Positions 38,870 to 45,857 of a stretch of DNA of 64,000 bases are shown here, one piece after another. The position numbers were made by a program, and so were the translations under genes. Source of the stretch: Escherichia phage vB_EcoA_4HA11; sequence record MN445184, one strand, 5' to 3'. The notes under the pieces were generated by a model. It was not told the origin of the DNA. It did no database searches and saw only the letters and a program-made list of their open reading frames with translations. Each line of letters opens with the position of its first letter. Position 1 is the stretch's first letter.

Positions 38870-40552
38870 TTAAATACTATCGTCTGTTGAACCAGAGAAT
38901 GGGATAGTCTCAGGTTTAAACTTCAACGGACTAACATCTGAACCGCTATAATTGCCAGTTTCATCTGCTTGAACCTTCGGATAGAGACCTTTCTTCTTCT
39001 CTTCCGCGATCTTCGTTTGTTGTTCTTTAACTTCTTCATCAGACATACGCAATACATTTCTCATGACGTAGTCTATGGAGAAAATGGAACCAACAAATGG
39101 CTCAACAGTGTTCAATGAAGCCAGACGATCATTCAAGATAGCGTTTTCTTGTTGTTCACGAATGTAACTATCGGATGTGAATTCAAACTTTATAAACGGT
39201 TTGATCTTCTCATTCCAATCCTTTTCATCCGTAACGCCTTTCAAAATTAACTGGCGGCGCAAGAATTCCATAAAGAAATGGGAGTAACGACGACGTAACC
39301 CAGCACAGAACTTGCTGAAACGCAGCTCTTCCTGTGTAATCTCCGCGAGGTTGGAACCCCCAATGTTAATAGATCCTTCCTCTTGGAGGCGGCTCTTAGG
39401 GATCATTAGAGCATCATAGAGTTTTTCACGGAAATAGTTCACGTGATCCATTTCGCCCAATTGATTCCCACCCCCAACAGTCGCAATCTCTGTAGCATTC
39501 TGACCTTCGCGGCGCGGCAACCAATAATCCTCTGCAATACCCATAAGATGGGCATTACCTGTTATCTTACCAGTGGTGCGGTCATATGCGTTGCGGTTTT
39601 TGAATTTACCCATCATCATGGTCATGTATTCTTCAGCAGATTTCTTACCGAGAGTACCGACGTCAAGATAGAATGCGCGTTTCTCAGGGGCGCGAGTGAT
39701 GGCATAAATTACAGTCGCATCTTCAGTCGTAACCAGGTTGTTCAACGGACGGATAGCAGGATTTAAAAGGCCTGGGACAATACCATTGGCCAATGGCTCT
39801 TCACCACTATCGATGTAAACAATGCTTTCGTCATCGAATACGAGTTCTTGTTGTGAAGGTTGGAAGTTTTGAGAAGTACCTGATTGACCAGTGAATTGGT
39901 TTCGATTATAATTCGGATTGTAATAGTATTTCAGCGTTACAGATTCGATCGCTTCTATACCACCTTCACGCATTGCCTTTTCAACGATGTACACAGGACG
40001 AATACAACGAGAATCCAGCATGACCAATTTCTTGATCCCGCCCTTCTTATTCGTTGGGTCAACAATCACATGATACGCTTGTCGACCATCTACATACCAT
40101 TTCCGAATCTTTTGATACGCCGTATTTTCAAAATCCATCAAATGAATCACTTCTTTGAAACATTCGGTGATAGATTCTTTGACTGATTCAGAAATACCAT
40201 CAACTTTGTCAAGATTGACTGTCACCGGAGTTTCGTCTTCCTCACATGTGACAACGTCATTAACAATGATGTCCACAGCTTTGCGGATTTCTGGCTGCTG
40301 GGCCATGGACTGATATTCTTCCACAACTGTTTTAACGCTGAGAAGTTCACTCTCAACGCCAACATAGTTGTAGGTGTTTGCACCGCCCTGAAGGATTATA
40401 GAACCGTCTTGAGCATCGTCCAGAGCAACAACTGTCGCCTTGGTGAGCAACAATTCATCTTGTTTTTGGGCTAACTTATCGGTGTCGACTTTGGCATTGA
40501 CTAAACCGCCGCCACCAAACAAACCGAAGAACCCCATGCCGTATCCAGCCAT
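38870..40552 (-). CDS. gp20: portal protein (gp20-like)
   Basis: DATVIYAITRAPEKRAFYLDVG...AEDYWLPRREGQNATEI... closely parallels T4 gp20 ([22 protein letters not shown]...TEDYWLQRRDGKAVTEV). Confidence 0.9.
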   Translation of the reverse strand: MAGYGMGFFGLFGGGGLVNAKVDTDKLAQKQDELLLTKATVVALDDAQDGSIILQGGANTYNYVGVESELLSVKTVVEEYQSMAQQPEIRKAVDIIVNDVVTCEEDETPVTVNLDKVDGISESVKESITECFKEVIHLMDFENTAYQKIRKWYVDGRQAYHVIVDPTNKKGGIKKLVMLDSRCIRPVYIVEKAMREGGIEAIESVTLKYYYNPNYNRNQFTGQSGTSQNFQPSQQELVFDDESIVYIDSGEEPLANGIVPGLLNPAIRPLNNLVTTEDATVIYAITRAPEKRAFYLDVGTLGKKSAEEYMTMMMGKFKNRNAYDRTTGKITGNAHLMGIAEDYWLPRREGQNATEIATVGGGNQLGEMDHVNYFREKLYDALMIPKSRLQEEGSINIGGSNLAEITQEELRFSKFCAGLRRRYSHFFMEFLRRQLILKGVTDEKDWNEKIKPFIKFEFTSDSYIREQQENAILNDRLASLNTVEPFVGSIFSIDYVMRNVLRMSDEEVKEQQTKIAEEKKKGLYPKVQADETGNYSGSDVSPLKFKPETIPFSGSTDDSI

Positions 40553-40619: not shown

Positions 40620-41153
40620 TTACAATGACTTGTCAGAAACGGCTTGGAAATAACGCAAGTCGACAGTGAACTGTGTGTAAGAGTCCATTGCCGACATATC
40701 GAGTTCCAGTTGGCCGAGGTTTTGAGGCCAGCCGCCCTGTAAAGTCCATGTCTTAGTCACGTTGTCATTCGCGTCCAGAAGTTCCATGATGATATCACGG
40801 AAATAATCATCTGGATTCGCGCTGGCGCGGTTGTTTTCACTACCGTTGATGAATTGCTGCCACACTTCAAAAGCATTGTATGGAGCGTTGTTCACCACGT
40901 TAATGAACGTCACAGGAAGCGCTTCGAAACGACGATCCCCTGGGAACGGAAGTTCACGACCACCCCAGGGCACCAGAATTTCGCCCAGCTGACCTGTTGG
41001 GGTGTTGGTGGTTACAGCCAGCAAGGACACGTCACGAATTGTGTCGGAACCAGCAACAAAAGAAGGAAAGTTTACAGTCACACGCCAGCGGTGTTGGCGT
41101 TGTACGCCGCCCCCTCGTGACATGGCTGCGCGAAACTCATTGACTGTCGCCAT
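40620..41153 (-). CDS. gp19: tail tube protein (gp19-like)
   Basis: 177 aa, between sheath and portal genes as in T4. Confidence 0.65.
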   Translation of the reverse strand: MATVNEFRAAMSRGGGVQRQHRWRVTVNFPSFVAGSDTIRDVSLLAVTTNTPTGQLGEILVPWGGRELPFPGDRRFEALPVTFINVVNNAPYNAFEVWQQFINGSENNRASANPDDYFRDIIMELLDANDNVTKTWTLQGGWPQNLGQLELDMSAMDSYTQFTVDLRYFQAVSDKSL

Positions 41154-41183
41154 TTTTATATCTCCAAATAAGAGTACACAATT

Positions 41184-41642
41184 CTAATTAGTCGTCAATC
41201 TTTTAATCTTCATGGAAGAAAAATCAAATCCGTGGTCAACATTGCTTAAAACGGGTTCGATTTCACACAATTCCCAACGGGGATCTATGAGAGAAACAAG
41301 ACCAATGTGTTCACCTGTGGATGTCAATTTTGCTGCAGTTTTACCCAGCATATGACTTCCATCATTACCGCCTTTATTCATGTTGTAACCCATCTCATAA
41401 GAATTATATTGAGAGATGAGTTGCTTCTCTAATTCCCATTTATGGACTTCATCGGTCTGAGCAATTACAACGAAAGTAAATCCAGATGTTCCATACTTAC
41501 GCATGGCATCATACAATTCACTTTGGACTCCATGATGAAAAGCATTCGCAAAATGCTGATCATATCTTCGTTGTGGGTCATTGGTCACACCGATGTAGAC
41601 CTTTCCATTAGTTATCGTTTCAATTTTGTATGCGTATATCAT
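41184..41642 (-). mobile_element. GIY-YIG homing endonuclease (I-TevI-like catalytic domain)
   Basis: IYAYKIETITNGKVYIGVTNDPQRRYDQH...E...GYNMNKGG parallels I-TevI GIYQIKN..NNKVYVGSA...RWKRH...GYNI; inserted between sheath and tube genes. Confidence 0.75.
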
Positions 41643-41664: not shown

Positions 41665-41692
41665 CAAAGGAAAACCCCGCCGAAGCGGGGTT
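41665..41692 (-). terminator. rho-independent terminator after the tail sheath gene
   Basis: CCCCGC-UUCG-GCGGGG (41675..41690) then UUUUCCUUUGUCUUAUUG. Confidence 0.6.
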
Positions 41693-41698
41693 GGTCAT

Positions 41699-43627
41699 TT
41701 ATGAAGCAGCAACGATGCCGCCACCGGATTCGATTTCGCTGAACTCCATATCTGGTCGAACTGCAGCAAAATCCAAATAAATCCAGTTAATGCTGTACTC
41801 AGGCTTCAACCAAATACCAGCAACCATTTGGTTTGCCGCAATGATATCAGCAGTGTTGTTGTCTTCATCACATTTGACTTTACCATCGTAAATCGCGCCC
41901 ATATTTGCCAGCTGGCGAATATATGGACGAACCGCATTGCTGAACAGACCACGTGTAAACGCGTCATTGTTCTCACCAAGATAGTATTTGGCGATTGCGG
42001 CGATGTTCTGCTCAGCCATGATGAACAGGCCACGAACGTTGATACGGTCAAACGCCGACGGGCGGGTCAGGCCAGTTTTGTCACCATACAGGACGATGCC
42101 TTCATTGGAGAAGGTTACGATGCTGTTGATCTGGTTGCGGTACAACACAGCACGTTCATCAGAAGATGCAGACCACGCCATTCGATTATAGTTGTTGTAT
42201 TTACCACGGTTGTGGAACGCCGGAGATTTGTAGATACCCGCGATTTCAATGCTTCGCGCCCAAACACCTGCGGTGCCACCACAAGCCGGAATCCAACGCA
42301 TTTTGTCGTTGTACTTGTCGTACACATATGCCCAGTTATCATCCATGAAGAAATAAGAAGAGTCGCGAACAAGGCTTTCACGCCAAGCAACGACATCATC
42401 CATTTCACGACCACGGTTGCCAACAACCGTATCACGGAGCGGGGATACGAAAGATACGGTATCTTTTCGCTCAGTAGATAAGTCGATCAATGCTTGTTGC
42501 TCAATCAGTTCTTCACAGTACGCAAATACTGGCTTCGCATCATATGCTTCAGCATTGTTCAAGACTTGGATAGCTGCCACGCGGTTGATGTTATAATCGT
42601 CTACGCCGCCTTCTAATTCAACGACACCTGCAACCAGTTCGCTCGCGAAGGTATACACCCAATTTGAAGTATCGTTGATCACGTCTTTGAAGTACGCATT
42701 CGCGCCATCGGATTTTTTAGAACCCTGGGTGTTCTGCATCAGTTCGTATTTTTCAATGATGGAACCAGAAGCGCCAACAGTAGTGATTACGGCTGTTGCA
42801 GTCAGTCCTTTATCATCAGGAACGATAGCTGTAACGGCCTGAGGACCGATAGCTTTATGGGTCACGATGACAGTGTTGGACTTCACGACAACAGAAGAAT
42901 AAACACTTGTCAGGGAAGTTAGCGCTGTACCGATTTTGGTTGCCAAAGTGGCTGGAGTATCAGTATCCAGATATGCGATATCTTCACCTGCCACACTGAT
43001 GGTGCCAGCAGCAGTAGCCGTACCAGAAACGGAGATACGGTCAACCTGACCGACTGCGCCAGCAGAGTCGGTAATGCGGCCAACTTTGTCTACGACAACT
43101 ACATGGAATTCACCAGACTGAGGTGCGTATGCAAAGTTATTACGGAATTCCCAAGTCGAGAACCCAGCAGCATCACAAACATTGATAGCAATATCATTAC
43201 CCAGGGAACCTGGATAACGACCAGTCCAAGTGATGGACGCCGAAGGACTTGCTGTTTCAAAATCCAGTTTGTTTTTGATCGCAATCGCTGTCTGACCTTT
43301 GGTAACAGAGTTCTTGGCTAGAGGACCAACAACACGGGTCACCCATGCCATAGAGCTGTAAGACAAAAAGTCCGCGATTACGAGAAAATCGGTCGCAGTA
43401 CTGTCGTTGGGTTTGAAGAATTTCTTCACCAAACCTGTCTCACCACCAGTCACCAGCACTGGAAGTTCAACTTCACCCCATTGAAATTTGCCGACGGTCG
43501 CGCCCTGAACAACAACGGACGGAGACGTCTGAAGCGTGGCATCACGCTCAGTCCACTGAACGGACGGCGCAACGCTGAAGCTTTGAGTTGCCATAATATC
43601 ATTCCTTCTCGGTAGAGTTTCGCTCAA
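41699..43627 (-). CDS. gp18: tail sheath protein (gp18-like)
   Basis: About 630-640 aa between terminase and tube genes; track start is TTG, likelier ATG 43594 with AAGGAA SD. Confidence 0.8.
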   Translation of the reverse strand: MSETLPRRNDIMATQSFSVAPSVQWTERDATLQTSPSVVVQGATVGKFQWGEVELPVLVTGGETGLVKKFFKPNDSTATDFLVIADFLSYSSMAWVTRVVGPLAKNSVTKGQTAIAIKNKLDFETASPSASITWTGRYPGSLGNDIAINVCDAAGFSTWEFRNNFAYAPQSGEFHVVVVDKVGRITDSAGAVGQVDRISVSGTATAAGTISVAGEDIAYLDTDTPATLATKIGTALTSLTSVYSSVVVKSNTVIVTHKAIGPQAVTAIVPDDKGLTATAVITTVGASGSIIEKYELMQNTQGSKKSDGANAYFKDVINDTSNWVYTFASELVAGVVELEGGVDDYNINRVAAIQVLNNAEAYDAKPVFAYCEELIEQQALIDLSTERKDTVSFVSPLRDTVVGNRGREMDDVVAWRESLVRDSSYFFMDDNWAYVYDKYNDKMRWIPACGGTAGVWARSIEIAGIYKSPAFHNRGKYNNYNRMAWSASSDERAVLYRNQINSIVTFSNEGIVLYGDKTGLTRPSAFDRINVRGLFIMAEQNIAAIAKYYLGENNDAFTRGLFSNAVRPYIRQLANMGAIYDGKVKCDEDNNTADIIAANQMVAGIWLKPEYSINWIYLDFAAVRPDMEFSEIESGGGIVAAS

Positions 43628-43646: not shown

Positions 43647-45857
43647 TCAATTCTTAAACCACTCATCCATGGTCATCCCTGACATTTCGTTGAAAACTTG
43701 AATACCCCCGAAACCAGGCAAATGCTCAGTTTCGGATGGGGTGTCTCCAACGACTAAACCGCCAAATGGGAATACCTGCTGAGATTCAGTTGAAGACATT
43801 CGGTTTCTCATGTCCTGAGAAATACTTGTAGATGTCAAATCACTGAACCATTCTTGTTTTACCGCCCATGAATATAAGACCAACGGCATGACACAGTCAT
43901 CGTGACAACCGTCATCGGCTTCATACCGAGCGCCTTTGAACACAAATGTACTGAGTTCATCTATCGTGTCCTGGTCTTCTATCACCAACATTTCTTTCTC
44001 AATGAGCGCTTTCAGGTTAGCACAACCGATAGATCGGACTTTTCTGTTGGTATTGATACCAGGTTCCGGTTTACGCCCACCAATCCGTTTCCCCGTCCCT
44101 TTGTTATCTGTTGATGTGAATATGATTTCTGGATATTCTATCTCTTGATAAAGAATTGTAATAACCTGACCGCCGACGTCGTTGTTTGTTTCAACAAGGA
44201 CAGGACATTCCCCGTATTCGGTGCACATATCAGCTATCGTGTATGCATACATCATAGGAGGTATCGTATTATTCCTGTACTTGGCTGCTATGACATGCGG
44301 ATATTCAGTTATATCCAGAATTGTTAAGACGGAATAATCTCCTTCCACCCCCTTCCCAGTGTCCGCAATCCCAAAGTAGAGACGTTGTGGGTCGTATTCC
44401 TTATAAATCTTGGTGAATTCATTAGGTTCCCGATACAACTTGGACGTCATTTTATCTAAGCATTTGGCCGGAATCAATGAACCCACGGAACCACGGAACT
44501 TAATGCCAAATTCTTGATCGAAACGAGCATCCCCCAGACGGGCACGTTGTTTGGTTTCCCAATCTGGATCTTTGGTATATGCCGGAACCTTATACCATGG
44601 GACTTCAGTTAGGTGGAAGTCGTTGTATTGTGGATGGCGCGGATCTGCTTTGGTGACAATATCATAGAACAACCCTCGCTGGCCTTTCGGAGTACTTGTC
44701 AAAATACAGCGTGATGTATCGGCAGATGCAATGGCTGGGAAAGTTGATTCCCAAAATTCAAAGTCGTTTTCGATAAACGCGACTTCGTCAACGTACAAGA
44801 GCGATACAGAACGACCACGGATGGAGTCCGAAGACGTGGCATAAGCGTATATCTTAGAACCATTTTCAAACTCTATCAGGGTAGAACCAAACTTCTCACA
44901 ACCCTGCTGAAGGAAGAATGGAAGGTCTTGGTATGCCTTTCTGATACGGTCAAGAATTTCTATCGCTTGTTTCTCTTTGTTTGCCAGTACTGCGATTTCC
45001 TTATCAGAATGGAACATCGCATACCAAAGAAGAAACGCCGCCACCACGGTCGTGTTATGACTGAGAAAGCCATTCGTGTAATAACGTTGATCACTAGATT
45101 TGACCTGCAGATCGTACATATGGTGATATTCACCAGTCTGCCAAATCTCACGGATTTCTTCTGGACCTTCTGTCGTCATGATGTATGACCCAGCATTCAG
45201 GTCTTTGGCAAATGTCTCCTTCATGTCCGGAGTGAAGAACATATGTTCATCGGCCACGTTAATTCGCCTTCCGGTAACTGTGACAATAACGAATTCCGCA
45301 TATTTCTTCGTCTTATGCGCTGCGATAACCGGAACCCAGCCACTATCGGATTGTACAAAGTAACGTTTGCCGAAGCGGCTGTCCACGAACTTGTCATGGT
45401 TGCCAATGGTATTCAGCGGCACAGCGTGGTTGACGTCCTCGAATCGGCTGTGAAGCTCCCCTATGGTCAGGAGCAACTCCTCTTGGCTGAGAGTATCGTA
45501 AACTGTGACAAGCGTGTCGCCTTTTACACATTTTCCAGACTGACGAGCCTGGATGACCGCATTGAATCGATAGTCCTGAAAGTCATGGAACAACTGTTTC
45601 TGATAATCATGCATATCGAAAAGGATAAAGCCTTTATCGATCGTGGTTATCTTGTAATAGTTGGCGGCGAAGTAGTGTGCATCCATAGAACATTCAACGA
45701 ATTCGTCTTCTTGTTCATCTGTCAGCATTAACTCGACTCGAGGAGCACGCACAGAAGGTTTGCGCATAAACGTTTGGTCCATACGCAATTTCACATCGTC
45801 TATTTTGAACCCCGTTTTAATTGGGGCATATTCTATATCACGCTTCTGATACGCCAT
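43647..45857 (-). CDS. gp17: terminase large subunit (gp17-like) interrupted by an intein
   Basis: Extein flanks ARQSGK / TTVVAAFLLWYAMF match T4 gp17 P-loop SRQLGKTTVVAIFLAHF; nuclease-domain region downstream. Confidence 0.9.
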   Translation of the reverse strand: MAYQKRDIEYAPIKTGFKIDDVKLRMDQTFMRKPSVRAPRVELMLTDEQEDEFVECSMDAHYFAANYYKITTIDKGFILFDMHDYQKQLFHDFQDYRFNAVIQARQSGKCVKGDTLVTVYDTLSQEELLLTIGELHSRFEDVNHAVPLNTIGNHDKFVDSRFGKRYFVQSDSGWVPVIAAHKTKKYAEFVIVTVTGRRINVADEHMFFTPDMKETFAKDLNAGSYIMTTEGPEEIREIWQTGEYHHMYDLQVKSSDQRYYTNGFLSHNTTVVAAFLLWYAMFHSDKEIAVLANKEKQAIEILDRIRKAYQDLPFFLQQGCEKFGSTLIEFENGSKIYAYATSSDSIRGRSVSLLYVDEVAFIENDFEFWESTFPAIASADTSRCILTSTPKGQRGLFYDIVTKADPRHPQYNDFHLTEVPWYKVPAYTKDPDWETKQRARLGDARFDQEFGIKFRGSVGSLIPAKCLDKMTSKLYREPNEFTKIYKEYDPQRLYFGIADTGKGVEGDYSVLTILDITEYPHVIAAKYRNNTIPPMMYAYTIADMCTEYGECPVLVETNNDVGGQVITILYQEIEYPEIIFTSTDNKGTGKRIGGRKPEPGINTNRKVRSIGCANLKALIEKEMLVIEDQDTIDELSTFVFKGARYEADDGCHDDCVMPLVLYSWAVKQEWFSDLTSTSISQDMRNRMSSTESQQVFPFGGLVVGDTPSETEHLPGFGGIQVFNEMSGMTMDEWFKN
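45054..45530 (-). mobile_element. mini-intein (159 aa) within terminase large subunit
   Basis: Insert begins CVKGDTLVTV, ends GFLSHN, followed by Thr; splits the Walker A motif between GK and T. Confidence 0.75.

What the first reader, a model, noticed from the sequence alone, without database searches (positions are those of the whole stretch)
41184..41642. Freestanding GIY-YIG homing endonuclease between tail sheath and tail tube genes
The 152-aa protein starts MIYAYKIETITNGKVYIGVTNDPQRRYDQH, which matches the GIY...YIG...R..H catalytic core of I-TevI-type enzymes. It sits directly after the sheath terminator with no promoter motif of its own, inside an otherwise syntenic T4-order block (18-19). 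This is the typical footprint of a mobile homing endonuclease gene.
Basis: partly seen in the sequence, partly recalled or inferred. Interest (0 to 1): 0.6.

Follow-up and report, generated by a model that had tools for sequence, protein, structure and literature searches.

The report
Short GIY-YIG endonuclease between sheath and tube
The gene is a real but already annotated GIY-YIG homing-endonuclease-family gene of ViI-like (Kuttervirus) Salmonella phages; it sits in a slot that many selfish endonuclease genes use, yet this copy is a shortened, anciently inherited version rather than a recent insertion.

Summary
A 152-aa ORF lies at 41184..41642 on the minus strand, between the tail sheath and tail tube genes and just after the sheath terminator. 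It has a GIY-YIG catalytic domain: Pfam E=1e-11, all catalytic residues present, and a predicted fold matching the I-TevI catalytic domain at TM 0.82-0.84. The window is a Kuttervirus (Ackermannviridae). The same protein is CBA120 orf195, published in 2011 as a putative homing endonuclease and named as such in RefSeq, so the finding is already known.

The "recent mobile insertion" reading is only partly right. The sheath|tube slot is a homing-endonuclease hotspot with at least seven states: empty, this short gene, two full-length GIY-YIG types, tandem and opposite-strand combinations, and a Hef-like gene. The last 150 nt of the sheath gene are a recombination mosaic. A full-length relative has moved recently between genera. 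The 152-aa gene itself lacks the ~90-aa C-terminal domain (HTH-like by weak profile hints) of its full-length relatives. It forms one clade, occupies this slot even in distant relatives, and diverges in step with its neighbours. It is under purifying selection (dN/dS about 0.08).

Most likely it is a truncated resident that is still catalytically active. Whether it still homes is untested.

The parts
41184..41642 (-). 152-aa GIY-YIG endonuclease ORF (ATG at 41642, TAG stop at 41184-41186)
   Evidence: It is 99.3-100% identical to annotated proteins of Kuttervirus phages, including CBA120 orf195.
41364..41642 (-). Catalytic GIY-YIG domain, residues 1-93 (Y5, Y16, R26, H30, E72, N87)
   Evidence: Pfam residues 2-87. 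Alignment to I-TevI Y6/Y17/R27/H31/E75/N90. These residues are invariant in 120 homologues. AF2 pLDDT is above 90 and the secondary structure is beta-beta-alpha-alpha-beta-alpha. Foldseek to I-TevI gives TMt 0.82-0.84 and rmsd 1.7-2.0 A.
41253..41345 (-). Conserved three-strand beta mini-domain, residues 100-130 (LTSTGEHIGLVSLIDPRWELCEIE); function unknown, possibly DNA contact
   Evidence: This is the most conserved stretch of the family and is shared with the full-length relatives. AF2 predicts strands at 101-106, 112-117 and 128-130 with pLDDT about 80. There is no Pfam match even at E<=10.
41187..41252 (-). Low-confidence C-terminal tail, residues 131-152. It aligns with the NUMOD3-like segment of full-length relatives; the HTH-like domain that follows in those relatives is missing here.
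41673..41692 (-). Intrinsic-terminator-like hairpin after the sheath gene (8-bp stem, TTCG loop, T-rich tail); left boundary of the insertion slot
   Evidence: The hairpin sequence type differs among junction occupants.
41175..41191 (-). Conserved junction motif CTAATTAGAATTGTGTA; right boundary of the slot. It contains the ORF's stop codon and lies about 20-40 nt upstream of the tube start codon.
   Evidence: The motif is present in the empty site (Gloob) and next to every occupant, including distant contigs as CTAAATAGAATTG. It occurs only once in the window.
41699..41848 (-). Last 150 nt of the tail sheath gene: a recombination-mosaic (co-conversion-like) tract beside the slot
   Evidence: Within-genus identity drops from 89-99% over sheath nt 1-1700 to 72-91% over the last 150 nt. 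Mismatches between the window and KE27 are concentrated in the last 120 nt.
41699..43627 (-). Tail sheath gene (gp18-like); relatives annotate the start at the ATG equivalent to 43594
40620..41153 (-). Tail tube gene (gp19-like)

Best explanation
[quoted passage not shown] It resides in a slot between the sheath terminator and a conserved element upstream of the tube gene, and this slot is a landing site for homing-endonuclease genes throughout the Ackermannviridae.

This copy is a C-terminally truncated derivative. It keeps an intact I-TevI-like catalytic domain and a strongly conserved beta mini-domain. It has lost the ~90-aa C-terminal domain (HTH-like by weak profile hints) that its full-length sister lineage and the other GIY-YIG occupant of the slot retain. 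The truncation happened once, long ago. Since then the gene has been inherited vertically with the sheath and tube genes under purifying selection.

Shown: family, fold, catalytic residues, truncated architecture, locus polymorphism, vertical co-divergence, purifying selection, and mobility of the full-length relatives.

Inferred: the protein is still an active nuclease, made at a low level by read-through of the sheath terminator. During mixed infection it nicks or cuts the sheath-tube region of related genomes that lack it. Recombinational repair then favours inheritance of its own allele and flanks, as in the marker exclusion described for T4 Seg proteins. With no HTH domain, its targeting would rest on the catalytic domain, the mini-domain and the residual NUMOD3-like tail, or on a partner protein.
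For: Family and fold: Pfam GIY-YIG E=1.3e-11; PHROG 5123 at 1e-93; I-TevI catalytic domain by sequence and by fold, Foldseek E=2e-5, TMt 0.82-0.84, on a model with pLDDT 82.7. Y5, Y16, R26, H30, E72 and N87 are invariant in 120 homologues.

Hotspot: the same junction is empty in Gloob, Ag3, MK-13, P46FS4 and EspM4VN. It holds a 231-245-aa GIY-YIG gene in KE27, pertopsoe, ChubbyThor and Coodle. It holds tandem long+short genes in rabagast, L013 and L018, and the short gene plus an opposite-strand GIY-YIG gene in Phi_10. It holds a Hef-like 591-596-aa gene in Mutine and Ds5CZ; a Hef-like gene at this junction was published as F-LimVIII of LIMEstone1 (PMC3296691). It holds a 230-aa 'long' sister form in BRM 13314 and Menlow.

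Mobility of relatives: the 230-aa gene shows 0-3 mismatches per 100 nt between a Kuttervirus and a Taipeivirus whose flanks differ by 15-37 per 100 nt. The C-type gene of pertopsoe versus ChubbyThor has dS 0.48, against dS of about 1.2-1.4 for sheath and tube between the two genera, measured window versus ChubbyThor or Gloob.

Recombination scar: the last 150 nt of the sheath gene are mosaic.

Truncation: alignment with the full-length forms; no Pfam domain in the C-terminal 53 aa; TIGR01453 scores 49.1 bits, below the 56.05 cut-off, and covers profile positions 5-93 of 215 only, whereas the long form passes at 63.4 bits. The NJ tree places the short forms in one clade, sister to the long forms.

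Vertical inheritance and selection: window versus Klebsiella phage May gives dS 1.33 for the gene, 1.23 for sheath and 1.56 for tube, with dN/dS 0.085. The gene occupies the same slot in contigs with only 53-60% protein identity, and its divergence tracks that of the neighbours. tblastn gave no sign of decayed copies: about 205 records match at >=60% identity and 237 records cover >=80% of the protein, though frameshifts were not examined directly.
Against: No cleavage activity, target site or homing has been demonstrated for this protein or any close relative. Kutter et al. 2011 call it only 'putative'.

The gene lacks the DNA-binding domain that gives GIY-YIG homing endonucleases their site specificity, so it may be unable to home on its own.

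I found no case where the short gene is more similar between two phages than its flanks are. There is therefore no direct sign of recent horizontal movement, unlike its long relatives.

Under the usual invasion-fixation-decay cycle of homing endonuclease genes (established knowledge; Goddard and Burt), a fixed homing endonuclease gene should decay. Long-term purifying selection fits a domesticated function at least as well.

The mini-domain model is of moderate confidence (pLDDT about 80) and rests on about 17 informative sequences. The NJ tree has no bootstrap support values.
Confidence: 0.55

Rival explanations
1. Domesticated nuclease. The truncated GIY-YIG protein no longer homes. It is kept because it benefits the phage, for example by cutting the DNA of co-infecting relatives or of invading homing-endonuclease alleles (locus defence or exclusion), or by working with another phage DNA-binding protein in recombination or repair.
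For: Purifying selection with dN/dS about 0.08 over divergence that saturates synonymous sites. Fixed position in Kuttervirus, Taipeivirus and deeper relatives. Loss of the targeting domain with retention of all catalytic residues. The gene is retained intact even when a full-length GIY-YIG gene is inserted beside it, as in rabagast, L013 and L018.
Against: The gene is dispensable. It is absent from Agtrevirus and Limestonevirus and is replaced outright in several Kuttervirus isolates (KE27, pertopsoe, Mutine, BRM 13314). No partner protein or alternative substrate is indicated by any result. Exclusion of competitors is mechanistically the same as 'marker exclusion' by an active homing endonuclease, so this rival overlaps with the best explanation.
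Confidence: 0.25
2. Recently acquired, fully mobile I-TevI-type homing endonuclease. The gene is a young selfish insertion that spreads by cutting the intact sheath-tube junction of relatives.
For: GIY-YIG core, intergenic position, an empty site in some relatives, and mosaic flanks.
Against: dS of the gene equals dS of its flanks across genera. It occupies the same slot in contigs at 53-60% identity. It lacks the C-terminal DNA-binding domain. Islands of near-identity are seen for the 230-aa relative but not for this gene.
Confidence: 0.1
3. A non-specific host-DNA nuclease analogous to T4 endonuclease II (DenA), which is also a short single-domain GIY-YIG enzyme. It would degrade unmodified host DNA while the phage's hypermodified thymidine DNA is spared.
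For: Its size (152 aa) and lack of a separate DNA-binding domain resemble EndoII (my own knowledge; EndoII is 136 aa). Ackermannviridae DNA carries 5-hmdU-derived hypermodified bases (PMC8472413).
Against: The closest relatives by sequence, profile and fold are I-TevI-type homing endonucleases, and no EndoII structure appears among the top 50 Foldseek hits. It is the sister of bona fide two-domain, mobile endonuclease genes at the same slot. It is absent or replaced in many family members, which is unlike a core host-shutoff function.
Confidence: 0.05
4. An inactive remnant on its way to loss, that is, a pseudogene-like relic of a decayed homing endonuclease.
For: The C-terminal domain is lost. 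Two independent truncations (139 and 141 aa) in the sister lineage show that such decay happens at this slot.
Against: dN/dS is about 0.08. The catalytic residues and the mini-domain are invariant across members with as little as 53% identity, and no disrupted copies were seen.
Confidence: 0.05

Closest known systems
CBA120 orf195 / ViI (Vi01) 'GIY-YIG endonuclease' / PHROG 5123 'homing endonuclease with GIY-YIG motif'
   Same: This is the same gene. The protein is 98.7-100% identical, has the same length and sits at the same position between sheath and tube. Kutter et al. 2011 list it as one of two putative homing endonucleases of CBA120, 'a homolog of T4 segD' (PMC3184105).
   Different: Nothing differs in sequence terms. 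The literature I found does not mention the missing C-terminal domain, the vertical co-divergence or the multi-occupant hotspot.
I-TevI (phage T4 td intron endonuclease), the archetypal GIY-YIG homing endonuclease
   Same: The catalytic domain matches: Y-Y-R-H-E-N residues align, and the predicted fold superposes at rmsd 1.7-2.0 A with TMt 0.82-0.84.
   Different: I-TevI is intron-encoded, 245 aa long, and has a linker, a zinc finger, a minor-groove helix and an HTH DNA-binding domain (my own knowledge). This protein is freestanding and 152 aa long, has a beta mini-domain not present in I-TevI, and has no HTH. It falls below the TIGR01453 cut-off.
230-aa 'long' sister proteins at the same slot (Salmonella phage BRM 13314, Klebsiella phage Menlow; P0013-P0015)
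   Same: They are 58% identical over residues 1-130, including the mini-domain motif STGEHIG.VSL.DPRW..EIE, and occupy the same junction.
   Different: They carry an extra ~90-aa C-terminal region with sub-threshold NUMOD3 and HTH hints. They show recent transfer between genera, which the 152-aa gene does not.
T4 Seg proteins (SegA-G), freestanding GIY-YIG homing endonucleases that drive marker exclusion (e.g. SegB, PMC2330249)
   Same: They are freestanding and intergenic, lie between conserved genes, have a GIY-YIG N-terminal domain, and leave co-conversion-like mosaicism in a flanking gene.
   Different: Seg proteins are typically two-domain and sporadically distributed, and several have demonstrated cleavage (my own knowledge and the SegB paper's abstract). 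This one is truncated, near-fixed in two genera and untested.
F-LimVIII (LIMEstone1 ORF145), a Hef-like freestanding endonuclease upstream of the tail tube gene
   Same: It occupies the same sheath|tube junction in a related genus (PMC3296691 Table 1; homologues in Ds5CZ and Mutine).
   Different: It is an unrelated protein of about 591-596 aa with DUF7487 and weak restriction-endonuclease-like Pfam hints, and it is encoded on the opposite strand.

Membership tests
GIY-YIG nuclease superfamily (Pfam PF01541) | Profile match above the curated threshold | tested here: met
   45.1 bits against a cut-off of 22.6, E=1.3e-11, residues 2-87
GIY-YIG nuclease superfamily (Pfam PF01541) | Catalytic residues: the two Tyr of the GIY and YIG motifs, Arg, His, Glu, Asn | tested here: met
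   Y5, Y16, R26, H30, E72 and N87 align with I-TevI Y6, Y17, R27, H31, E75 and N90. They are invariant in a 120-sequence alignment.
GIY-YIG nuclease superfamily (Pfam PF01541) | beta-beta-alpha-alpha-beta-alpha fold | tested here: met
   The AF2 model has pLDDT above 90 over residues 1-93 with that order of elements. The best PDB matches are the I-TevI catalytic domain, then UvrC-N and Slx1.
Two-domain GIY-YIG homing endonucleases (I-TevI type; NCBIfam TIGR01453 grpIintron_endo) | Whole-protein score above the curated cut-off | tested here: not met
   49.1 bits against a cut-off of 56.05, and only profile positions 5-93 of 215 are matched. The 230-aa sister protein passes at 63.4 bits.
Two-domain GIY-YIG homing endonucleases (I-TevI type; NCBIfam TIGR01453 grpIintron_endo) | C-terminal DNA-binding module (NUMOD/HTH/zinc finger) tethered by a linker | tested here: not met
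   No Pfam family matches the C-terminal 53 aa even at E<=10. Alignment shows that the ~90-aa C-terminal region of the long forms is absent. Only a beta mini-domain and a degenerate NUMOD3-like tail remain.
Two-domain GIY-YIG homing endonucleases (I-TevI type; NCBIfam TIGR01453 grpIintron_endo) | [quoted passage not shown] | tested here: not met
   The ORF is intergenic, and no Rfam family reaches its gathering score anywhere in the window. The gene is freestanding.
Freestanding homing endonuclease genes of T4-like phages (Seg/Mob type) | Intergenic insertion between conserved genes, with an insert-free allele in relatives | tested here: met
   A 78-bp empty spacer is found in Gloob, Ag3, MK-13, P46FS4 and EspM4VN. 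The insertion boundaries map to just after the terminator and to CTAATTAGAATTG.
Freestanding homing endonuclease genes of T4-like phages (Seg/Mob type) | Sporadic distribution or phylogeny incongruent with the host genome (evidence of horizontal movement) | tested here: not met
   For this 152-aa gene, dS equals that of the flanks, and it occupies the same slot in all sampled Kuttervirus/Taipeivirus-type and deeper relatives that carry it. The feature is met for its long relatives.
Freestanding homing endonuclease genes of T4-like phages (Seg/Mob type) | Co-conversion or mosaic tracts in flanking genes | tested here: inconclusive
   A strong mosaic exists in the last 150 nt of the sheath gene. 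It cannot be assigned to this gene rather than to the other occupants of the slot.
Freestanding homing endonuclease genes of T4-like phages (Seg/Mob type) | Site-specific cleavage of the cognate insert-free DNA and unidirectional gene conversion | not testable with these tools
   This needs biochemistry and phage crosses. None was found in the literature for this protein.
T4 endonuclease II (DenA)-like host-DNA nucleases | Closest sequence or structure relationship to EndoII and conservation as a core function | tested here: not met
   The best profile, sequence and fold matches are all homing endonucleases, with no EndoII among the top 50 Foldseek hits. The gene is absent or replaced in many family members. 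No direct pairwise comparison with the EndoII sequence was made.

The most novel reading that the evidence does not exclude
The 152-aa protein is a domesticated homing-endonuclease fragment. It lost its own DNA-targeting domain long ago but has been kept for a very long time, to the point where synonymous sites are saturated, because it serves the phage. It might act as a defence of the sheath-tube locus against invading endonuclease alleles or co-infecting relatives, or as the catalytic subunit of a split nuclease that borrows a DNA-binding partner. It would then be a natural example of how a selfish homing endonuclease escapes the invasion-fixation-decay cycle.
Probability: 0.25. Interest if true: 0.55.

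Novelty: already known. Interest (0 to 1): 0.25.

Why it matters
As stated, the finding adds nothing new. The gene was published as a putative homing endonuclease in 2011 (CBA120 orf195) and carries that name in RefSeq for dozens of Kuttervirus genomes.

The comparative picture is of modest specialist interest. One 78-bp intergenic slot in the Ackermannviridae has been used by at least four unrelated or distantly related endonuclease genes. It shows clear recent transfer between genera and a recombination-scrambled gene end next to it. Its commonest occupant is a truncated form that has nevertheless stayed under strong purifying selection. That makes it a convenient natural system for asking how homing endonuclease genes persist after fixation, and for mining a compact I-TevI-like nuclease domain.

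It also has a practical side for phage-therapy genomics. Differences between closely related Kuttervirus isolates at this locus reflect endonuclease turnover, not changes in structural genes.

Tried and rejected
1. The first AF2 run used only 9 close homologues and gave a low-confidence model (pLDDT 56.7). It was replaced by a run on a 120-sequence alignment (pLDDT 82.7).

2. Direct phmmer against PDB sequences gave only marginal hits to I-TevI (E=0.014-0.044). The fold search was needed for a firm structural link.

3. I searched the window for paralogues of this gene and of the other junction occupants. There are none; only the ORF itself matched.

4. I looked for a promoter for the ORF. No sigma-70-like pair and no TATAAATA lie in the spacer. 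The sigma-70-like count in the region (7, against 4.4 +/- 1.8 expected) is not significant. The one good match (41431..41403, minus strand) lies inside the ORF and was not pursued.

5. I tested whether the conserved junction motif CTAATTAGAATTGTGTA is a repeated regulatory motif. It occurs only once in 64 kb even with 3 mismatches allowed, so no conclusion was possible.

6. Pfam on the C-terminal 53 aa at E<=10 returned nothing, so the mini-domain could not be assigned to NUMOD4, AP2 or any other known family.

7. Group I intron or other RNA element: none found.

8. The EndoII-like host-nuclease idea and the decaying-pseudogene idea were considered and set aside, for the reasons given under the rival explanations.

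9. Literature searches for a description of this hotspot in Kuttervirus or Ackermannviridae found only the LIMEstone1 table and the CBA120 sentence.

10. I did not verify the published 'segD homolog' label against the T4 SegD sequence.
Full report
**1. The observation**

The window holds an ATG-initiated ORF at 41184..41642 on the minus strand.

In the gene direction the order is as follows:
- large terminase, 43647..45857
- tail sheath, 41699..43627 (PHROG 23, 1e-113)
- this ORF
- tail tube, 40620..41153 (PHROG 45, 6e-57)
- portal, 38870..40552

This is the T4-like 17-18-19-20 order with one extra gene (the portal assignment follows relatives' annotations).

Six bases after the sheath stop codon there is an 8-bp GC-rich hairpin with a TTCG loop and a T-rich tail (41692..41673). 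The 56 nt between the hairpin and the ATG contain no sigma-70-like hexamer pair and no T4-type late motif TATAAATA. The description is therefore correct.

**2. What the protein is**

- **Profiles.** Pfam GIY-YIG (PF01541) matches residues 2-87 at 45.1 bits against a cut-off of 22.6, E=1.3e-11. PHROG 5123, 'homing endonuclease with GIY-YIG motif', matches end to end at 1e-93.
- **Catalytic residues.** Sequence alignment to the I-TevI catalytic domain pairs Y5, Y16, R26, H30, E72 and N87 with I-TevI Y6, Y17, R27, H31, E75 and N90. These residues are invariant in an alignment of 120 homologues.
- **Fold.** An AlphaFold2 model built on that alignment has mean pLDDT 82.7, and above 90 for residues 1-93. 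It shows the beta-beta-alpha-alpha-beta-alpha order of elements. Foldseek against the PDB ranks the I-TevI catalytic domain first (1mk0 and 1ln0, E=2e-5 to 1e-4, TM normalised to target 0.82-0.84, rmsd 1.7-2.0 A). UvrC-N and Slx1 follow far behind.

No Rfam family, and so no group I intron, was found anywhere in the window. The gene is freestanding.

**3. Where the window comes from, and whether the gene is known**

The 3-kb sheath-to-tube stretch is 99.8% identical to Salmonella phages SS3, SS9 and Se-G. It is 95-99% identical to more than 100 other Kuttervirus (Ackermannviridae, ViI-like) records.

The protein is 100% identical to that of Se-G, STP55 and others. It is 99.3% identical to Escherichia phage CBA120 orf195, annotated 'putative homing endonuclease SegD'. 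Kutter et al. [quoted passage not shown]

RefSeq names the gene 'homing endonuclease with GIY-YIG motif' in dozens of records. The finding is therefore already known as an annotation. I found no experimental work on it.

**4. The junction is a homing-endonuclease hotspot**

I fetched the sheath|tube junction from relatives and from metagenomic contigs. It occurs in at least seven states:

| State | Content of the junction | Examples |
|---|---|---|
| A | empty, 78-bp spacer | Agtrevirus-type phages Gloob, MK-13, Ag3, P46FS4, EspM4VN |
| B | the 152-aa gene | most Kuttervirus and Taipeivirus records |
| B-long | a 230-aa sister form | Salmonella phage BRM 13314, Klebsiella phage Menlow |
| C | a 231-245-aa GIY-YIG gene, 43% identical to B | KE27, pertopsoe, ChubbyThor, Coodle |
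| D | C and B in tandem | rabagast, L013, L018 |
| E | B plus an opposite-strand 262-aa GIY-YIG gene | Phi_10 |
| F | an opposite-strand 591-596-aa gene | Mutine, Ds5CZ |

State F corresponds to the Hef-like F-LimVIII that the LIMEstone1 paper lists upstream of the tail tube gene (PMC3296691).

The insertion boundaries are precise. The left edge lies just after the sheath terminator. The right edge is a conserved element, CTAATTAGAATTGTGTA (CTAAATAGAATTG in distant contigs). This element is present in the empty site too. It supplies the last codons and the stop codon of both the B and the long forms.

**5. Evidence that occupants of this slot move**

- The B-long gene of BRM 13314 (Kuttervirus) and of Menlow (Taipeivirus) differs at 0-3 positions per 100 nt. 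The flanking sheath, tube and portal genes differ at 15-37 per 100 nt. The island of near-identity coincides with the ORF.
- The C gene of pertopsoe (Kuttervirus) versus ChubbyThor (Agtrevirus) has dS 0.48. Sheath and tube between the two genera have dS of about 1.2-1.4, measured window versus ChubbyThor or Gloob.
- Over sheath nt 1-1700, identities follow taxonomy: 89-99% within Kuttervirus and 99% for Gloob versus ChubbyThor. Over the last 150 nt they collapse to 72-91%, even within a genus.
- Between the window and KE27, 17 of the 34 mismatches counted in the sheath gene (60-nt windows) lie in the last 120 nt, and none lie in the first 300 nt of the tube gene.
- Mutine (state F) is also recoded over the first ~300 nt of the tube gene.

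This is the pattern expected from repeated break-induced gene conversion next to homing endonuclease genes.

**6. The 152-aa gene is an old, truncated resident**

*Architecture.* Alignment with the long forms shows that B shares three parts with them:
- the catalytic domain;
- a strongly conserved segment, LTSTGEHIG-VSL-DPRW--EIE (residues ~100-130), modelled as three beta strands at pLDDT about 80;
- a degenerate version of the following NUMOD3-like stretch.

B lacks the remaining ~90 residues (NAKRF-LISP-G-E...GL-YS......TTGWQLIRIV). In the long form that region gives sub-threshold NUMOD3 and HTH hints.

The C-terminal 53 aa of the window protein match no Pfam family even at E<=10. Against NCBIfam TIGR01453 (group I intron endonuclease) the window protein scores 49.1 bits, below the 56.05 cut-off, and covers only profile positions 5-93 of 215. 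The long form passes at 63.4 bits.

*Phylogeny.* A neighbour-joining tree of the N-terminal 140 residues puts all short forms in one clade, sister to the long forms. Two independent truncations of the long form (139 and 141 aa) are nested within the long clade (no bootstrap values). One of them, in L017, keeps a remnant of the original 3' end.

*History.* Short forms with only 53-60% identity to the window protein sit in exactly the same slot in distant Ackermannviridae-like contigs. Divergence of the gene tracks that of its neighbours. For window versus Klebsiella phage May, dS is 1.33 for the gene, 1.23 for sheath and 1.56 for tube, and dN/dS is 0.085. Within the distant group, dN/dS is 0.084-0.086 where dS is measurable.

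Counts from tblastn give no sign of decayed copies: about 205 records match at >=60% identity, and 237 records cover >=80% of the protein. Frameshifts were not examined directly.

The gene is not essential. It is missing from Agtrevirus and Limestonevirus and has been replaced in several Kuttervirus isolates.

**7. Mechanism**

*Shown.* This is an I-TevI-like catalytic domain with every catalytic residue intact. It is followed by a conserved mini-domain and has no HTH. It lies between a terminator and a conserved element upstream of the tube gene, and it is under purifying selection.

*Inferred, about 0.55 overall.* The protein is made at a low level by terminator read-through and is still a nuclease. 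In mixed infections it nicks or cuts the sheath-tube region of related genomes that do not carry it. Repair from its own genome then favours its allele and flanks. This is the marker-exclusion behaviour documented for T4 Seg proteins (for example SegB, PMC2330249, abstract).

*Main rival, about 0.25.* The truncated enzyme no longer homes and has been domesticated, for locus defence or as part of a split nuclease. This would explain why a fixed gene has not decayed.

*Minor rivals.* The data argue against a young mobile insertion (0.1), an EndoII-like host-DNA nuclease (0.05) and a decaying relic (0.05).

Only cleavage assays and phage crosses can separate the first two.

**8. Comparison with known families and verdict**

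The protein is a member of the GIY-YIG superfamily; all three defining features tested were met. It descends from the two-domain homing-endonuclease lineage but does not meet the architectural definition of an I-TevI-type enzyme. The C-terminal DNA-binding module and the TIGR01453 threshold were both tested and not met.

It meets the positional criterion of a freestanding homing endonuclease gene, since an empty allele exists. It does not meet the criterion of incongruent, sporadic distribution.

The gene and its 'putative homing endonuclease' label are already in the literature and databases, so novelty is 'already known' and interest is low (0.25). What this analysis adds is the multi-occupant hotspot, the recent transfer of the long sister form between genera, the mosaic end of the sheath gene, and the long-term retention of a truncated form under purifying selection. 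I did not find these described in the literature searches I ran. They are of moderate interest to specialists in mobile elements.

Noticed in passing
window 45054..45530 (minus strand), inside the large terminase ORF 43647..45857: The 736-aa terminase large subunit carries a 159-aa intein-like insertion (aa 110-268) that splits the Walker A/P-loop...ARQSGK|CVKGDTLV...GFLSHN|TTVVAAF.... It has the canonical Cys1 and His-Asn/Thr+1 junction residues. Pfam Intein_splicing scores 29.3 bits, below the 35.8 cut-off. The insertion is too short to hold an endonuclease domain, so it looks like a mini-intein. Distant contigs L013 and L014 show 'Intein_splicing (faint)' in their terminases as well. The relatives' annotations shown do not mention it.
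   Followed up: partly
window 41175..41191 (minus strand); also L001, L002, L005, L006, L009, L011, L013, L015, L017, L018 next to the tube start: A conserved element, CTAATTAGAATTGTGTA (CTAAATAGAATTG in distant relatives), lies about 20-40 nt upstream of the tail tube start codon in every genome, whatever occupies the junction, including the empty site. It may be the promoter or a processing signal for the tube gene, since CTAAATA resembles the T4 late motif TATAAATA. It occurs only once in the window.
   Followed up: partly
L015 2590-3320 versus L016 2590-3320 (Salmonella phage BRM 13314 versus Klebsiella phage Menlow): The 230-aa GIY-YIG gene is about 99% identical between phages of two genera whose flanking genes are only about 80% identical. 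This is a clean island showing recent horizontal transfer between genera into the sheath|tube slot.
   Followed up: yes
L004 1125-1658 (Mutine tube gene) and L008 1387-1920 (Ds5CZ tube gene): Genomes carrying the opposite-strand Hef-like endonuclease share synonymous recoding at the 5' end of the tube gene (TTTCGCGCRGCC becomes TTCAGAGCAGCT). Mutine's first ~300 nt of the tube gene are about 20% diverged from other Kuttervirus. This may be a target site made resistant to cleavage, or a co-conversion tract of that endonuclease. Ds5CZ also keeps a remnant of the 3' end of a C-type GIY-YIG gene (…TTGWQLIRIV) beside the tube gene.
   Followed up: partly
public records OR844942.1 ('Enterococcus phage Efm 3-10', 111 kb) and MN871475.1 ('Pseudomonas phage Pa-sanjiao'): These records carry this protein at 100% and 99.3% identity, and Efm 3-10 matches the 3-kb Kuttervirus region at 98.9%. 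Their host labels look wrong: contamination, or mislabelled Kuttervirus genomes.
   Followed up: no
L017 2860-2995 (metagenomic contig ERR11042440_2016) and protein P0011: There are two independent internal deletions of the 230-aa form, giving 141- and 139-aa proteins. L017 retains the original 3'-terminal remnant (…GCCAGCTAATTAGAATTG). This shows that loss of the C-terminal domain recurs at this slot.
   Followed up: partly
window 41431..41403 (minus strand), inside the ORF: A 10-of-12 sigma-70-like match (TAGAGA-17-TATAAT) points toward the tube gene. The overall count of such matches in the region is not above the shuffled expectation, so it is probably chance.
   Followed up: no
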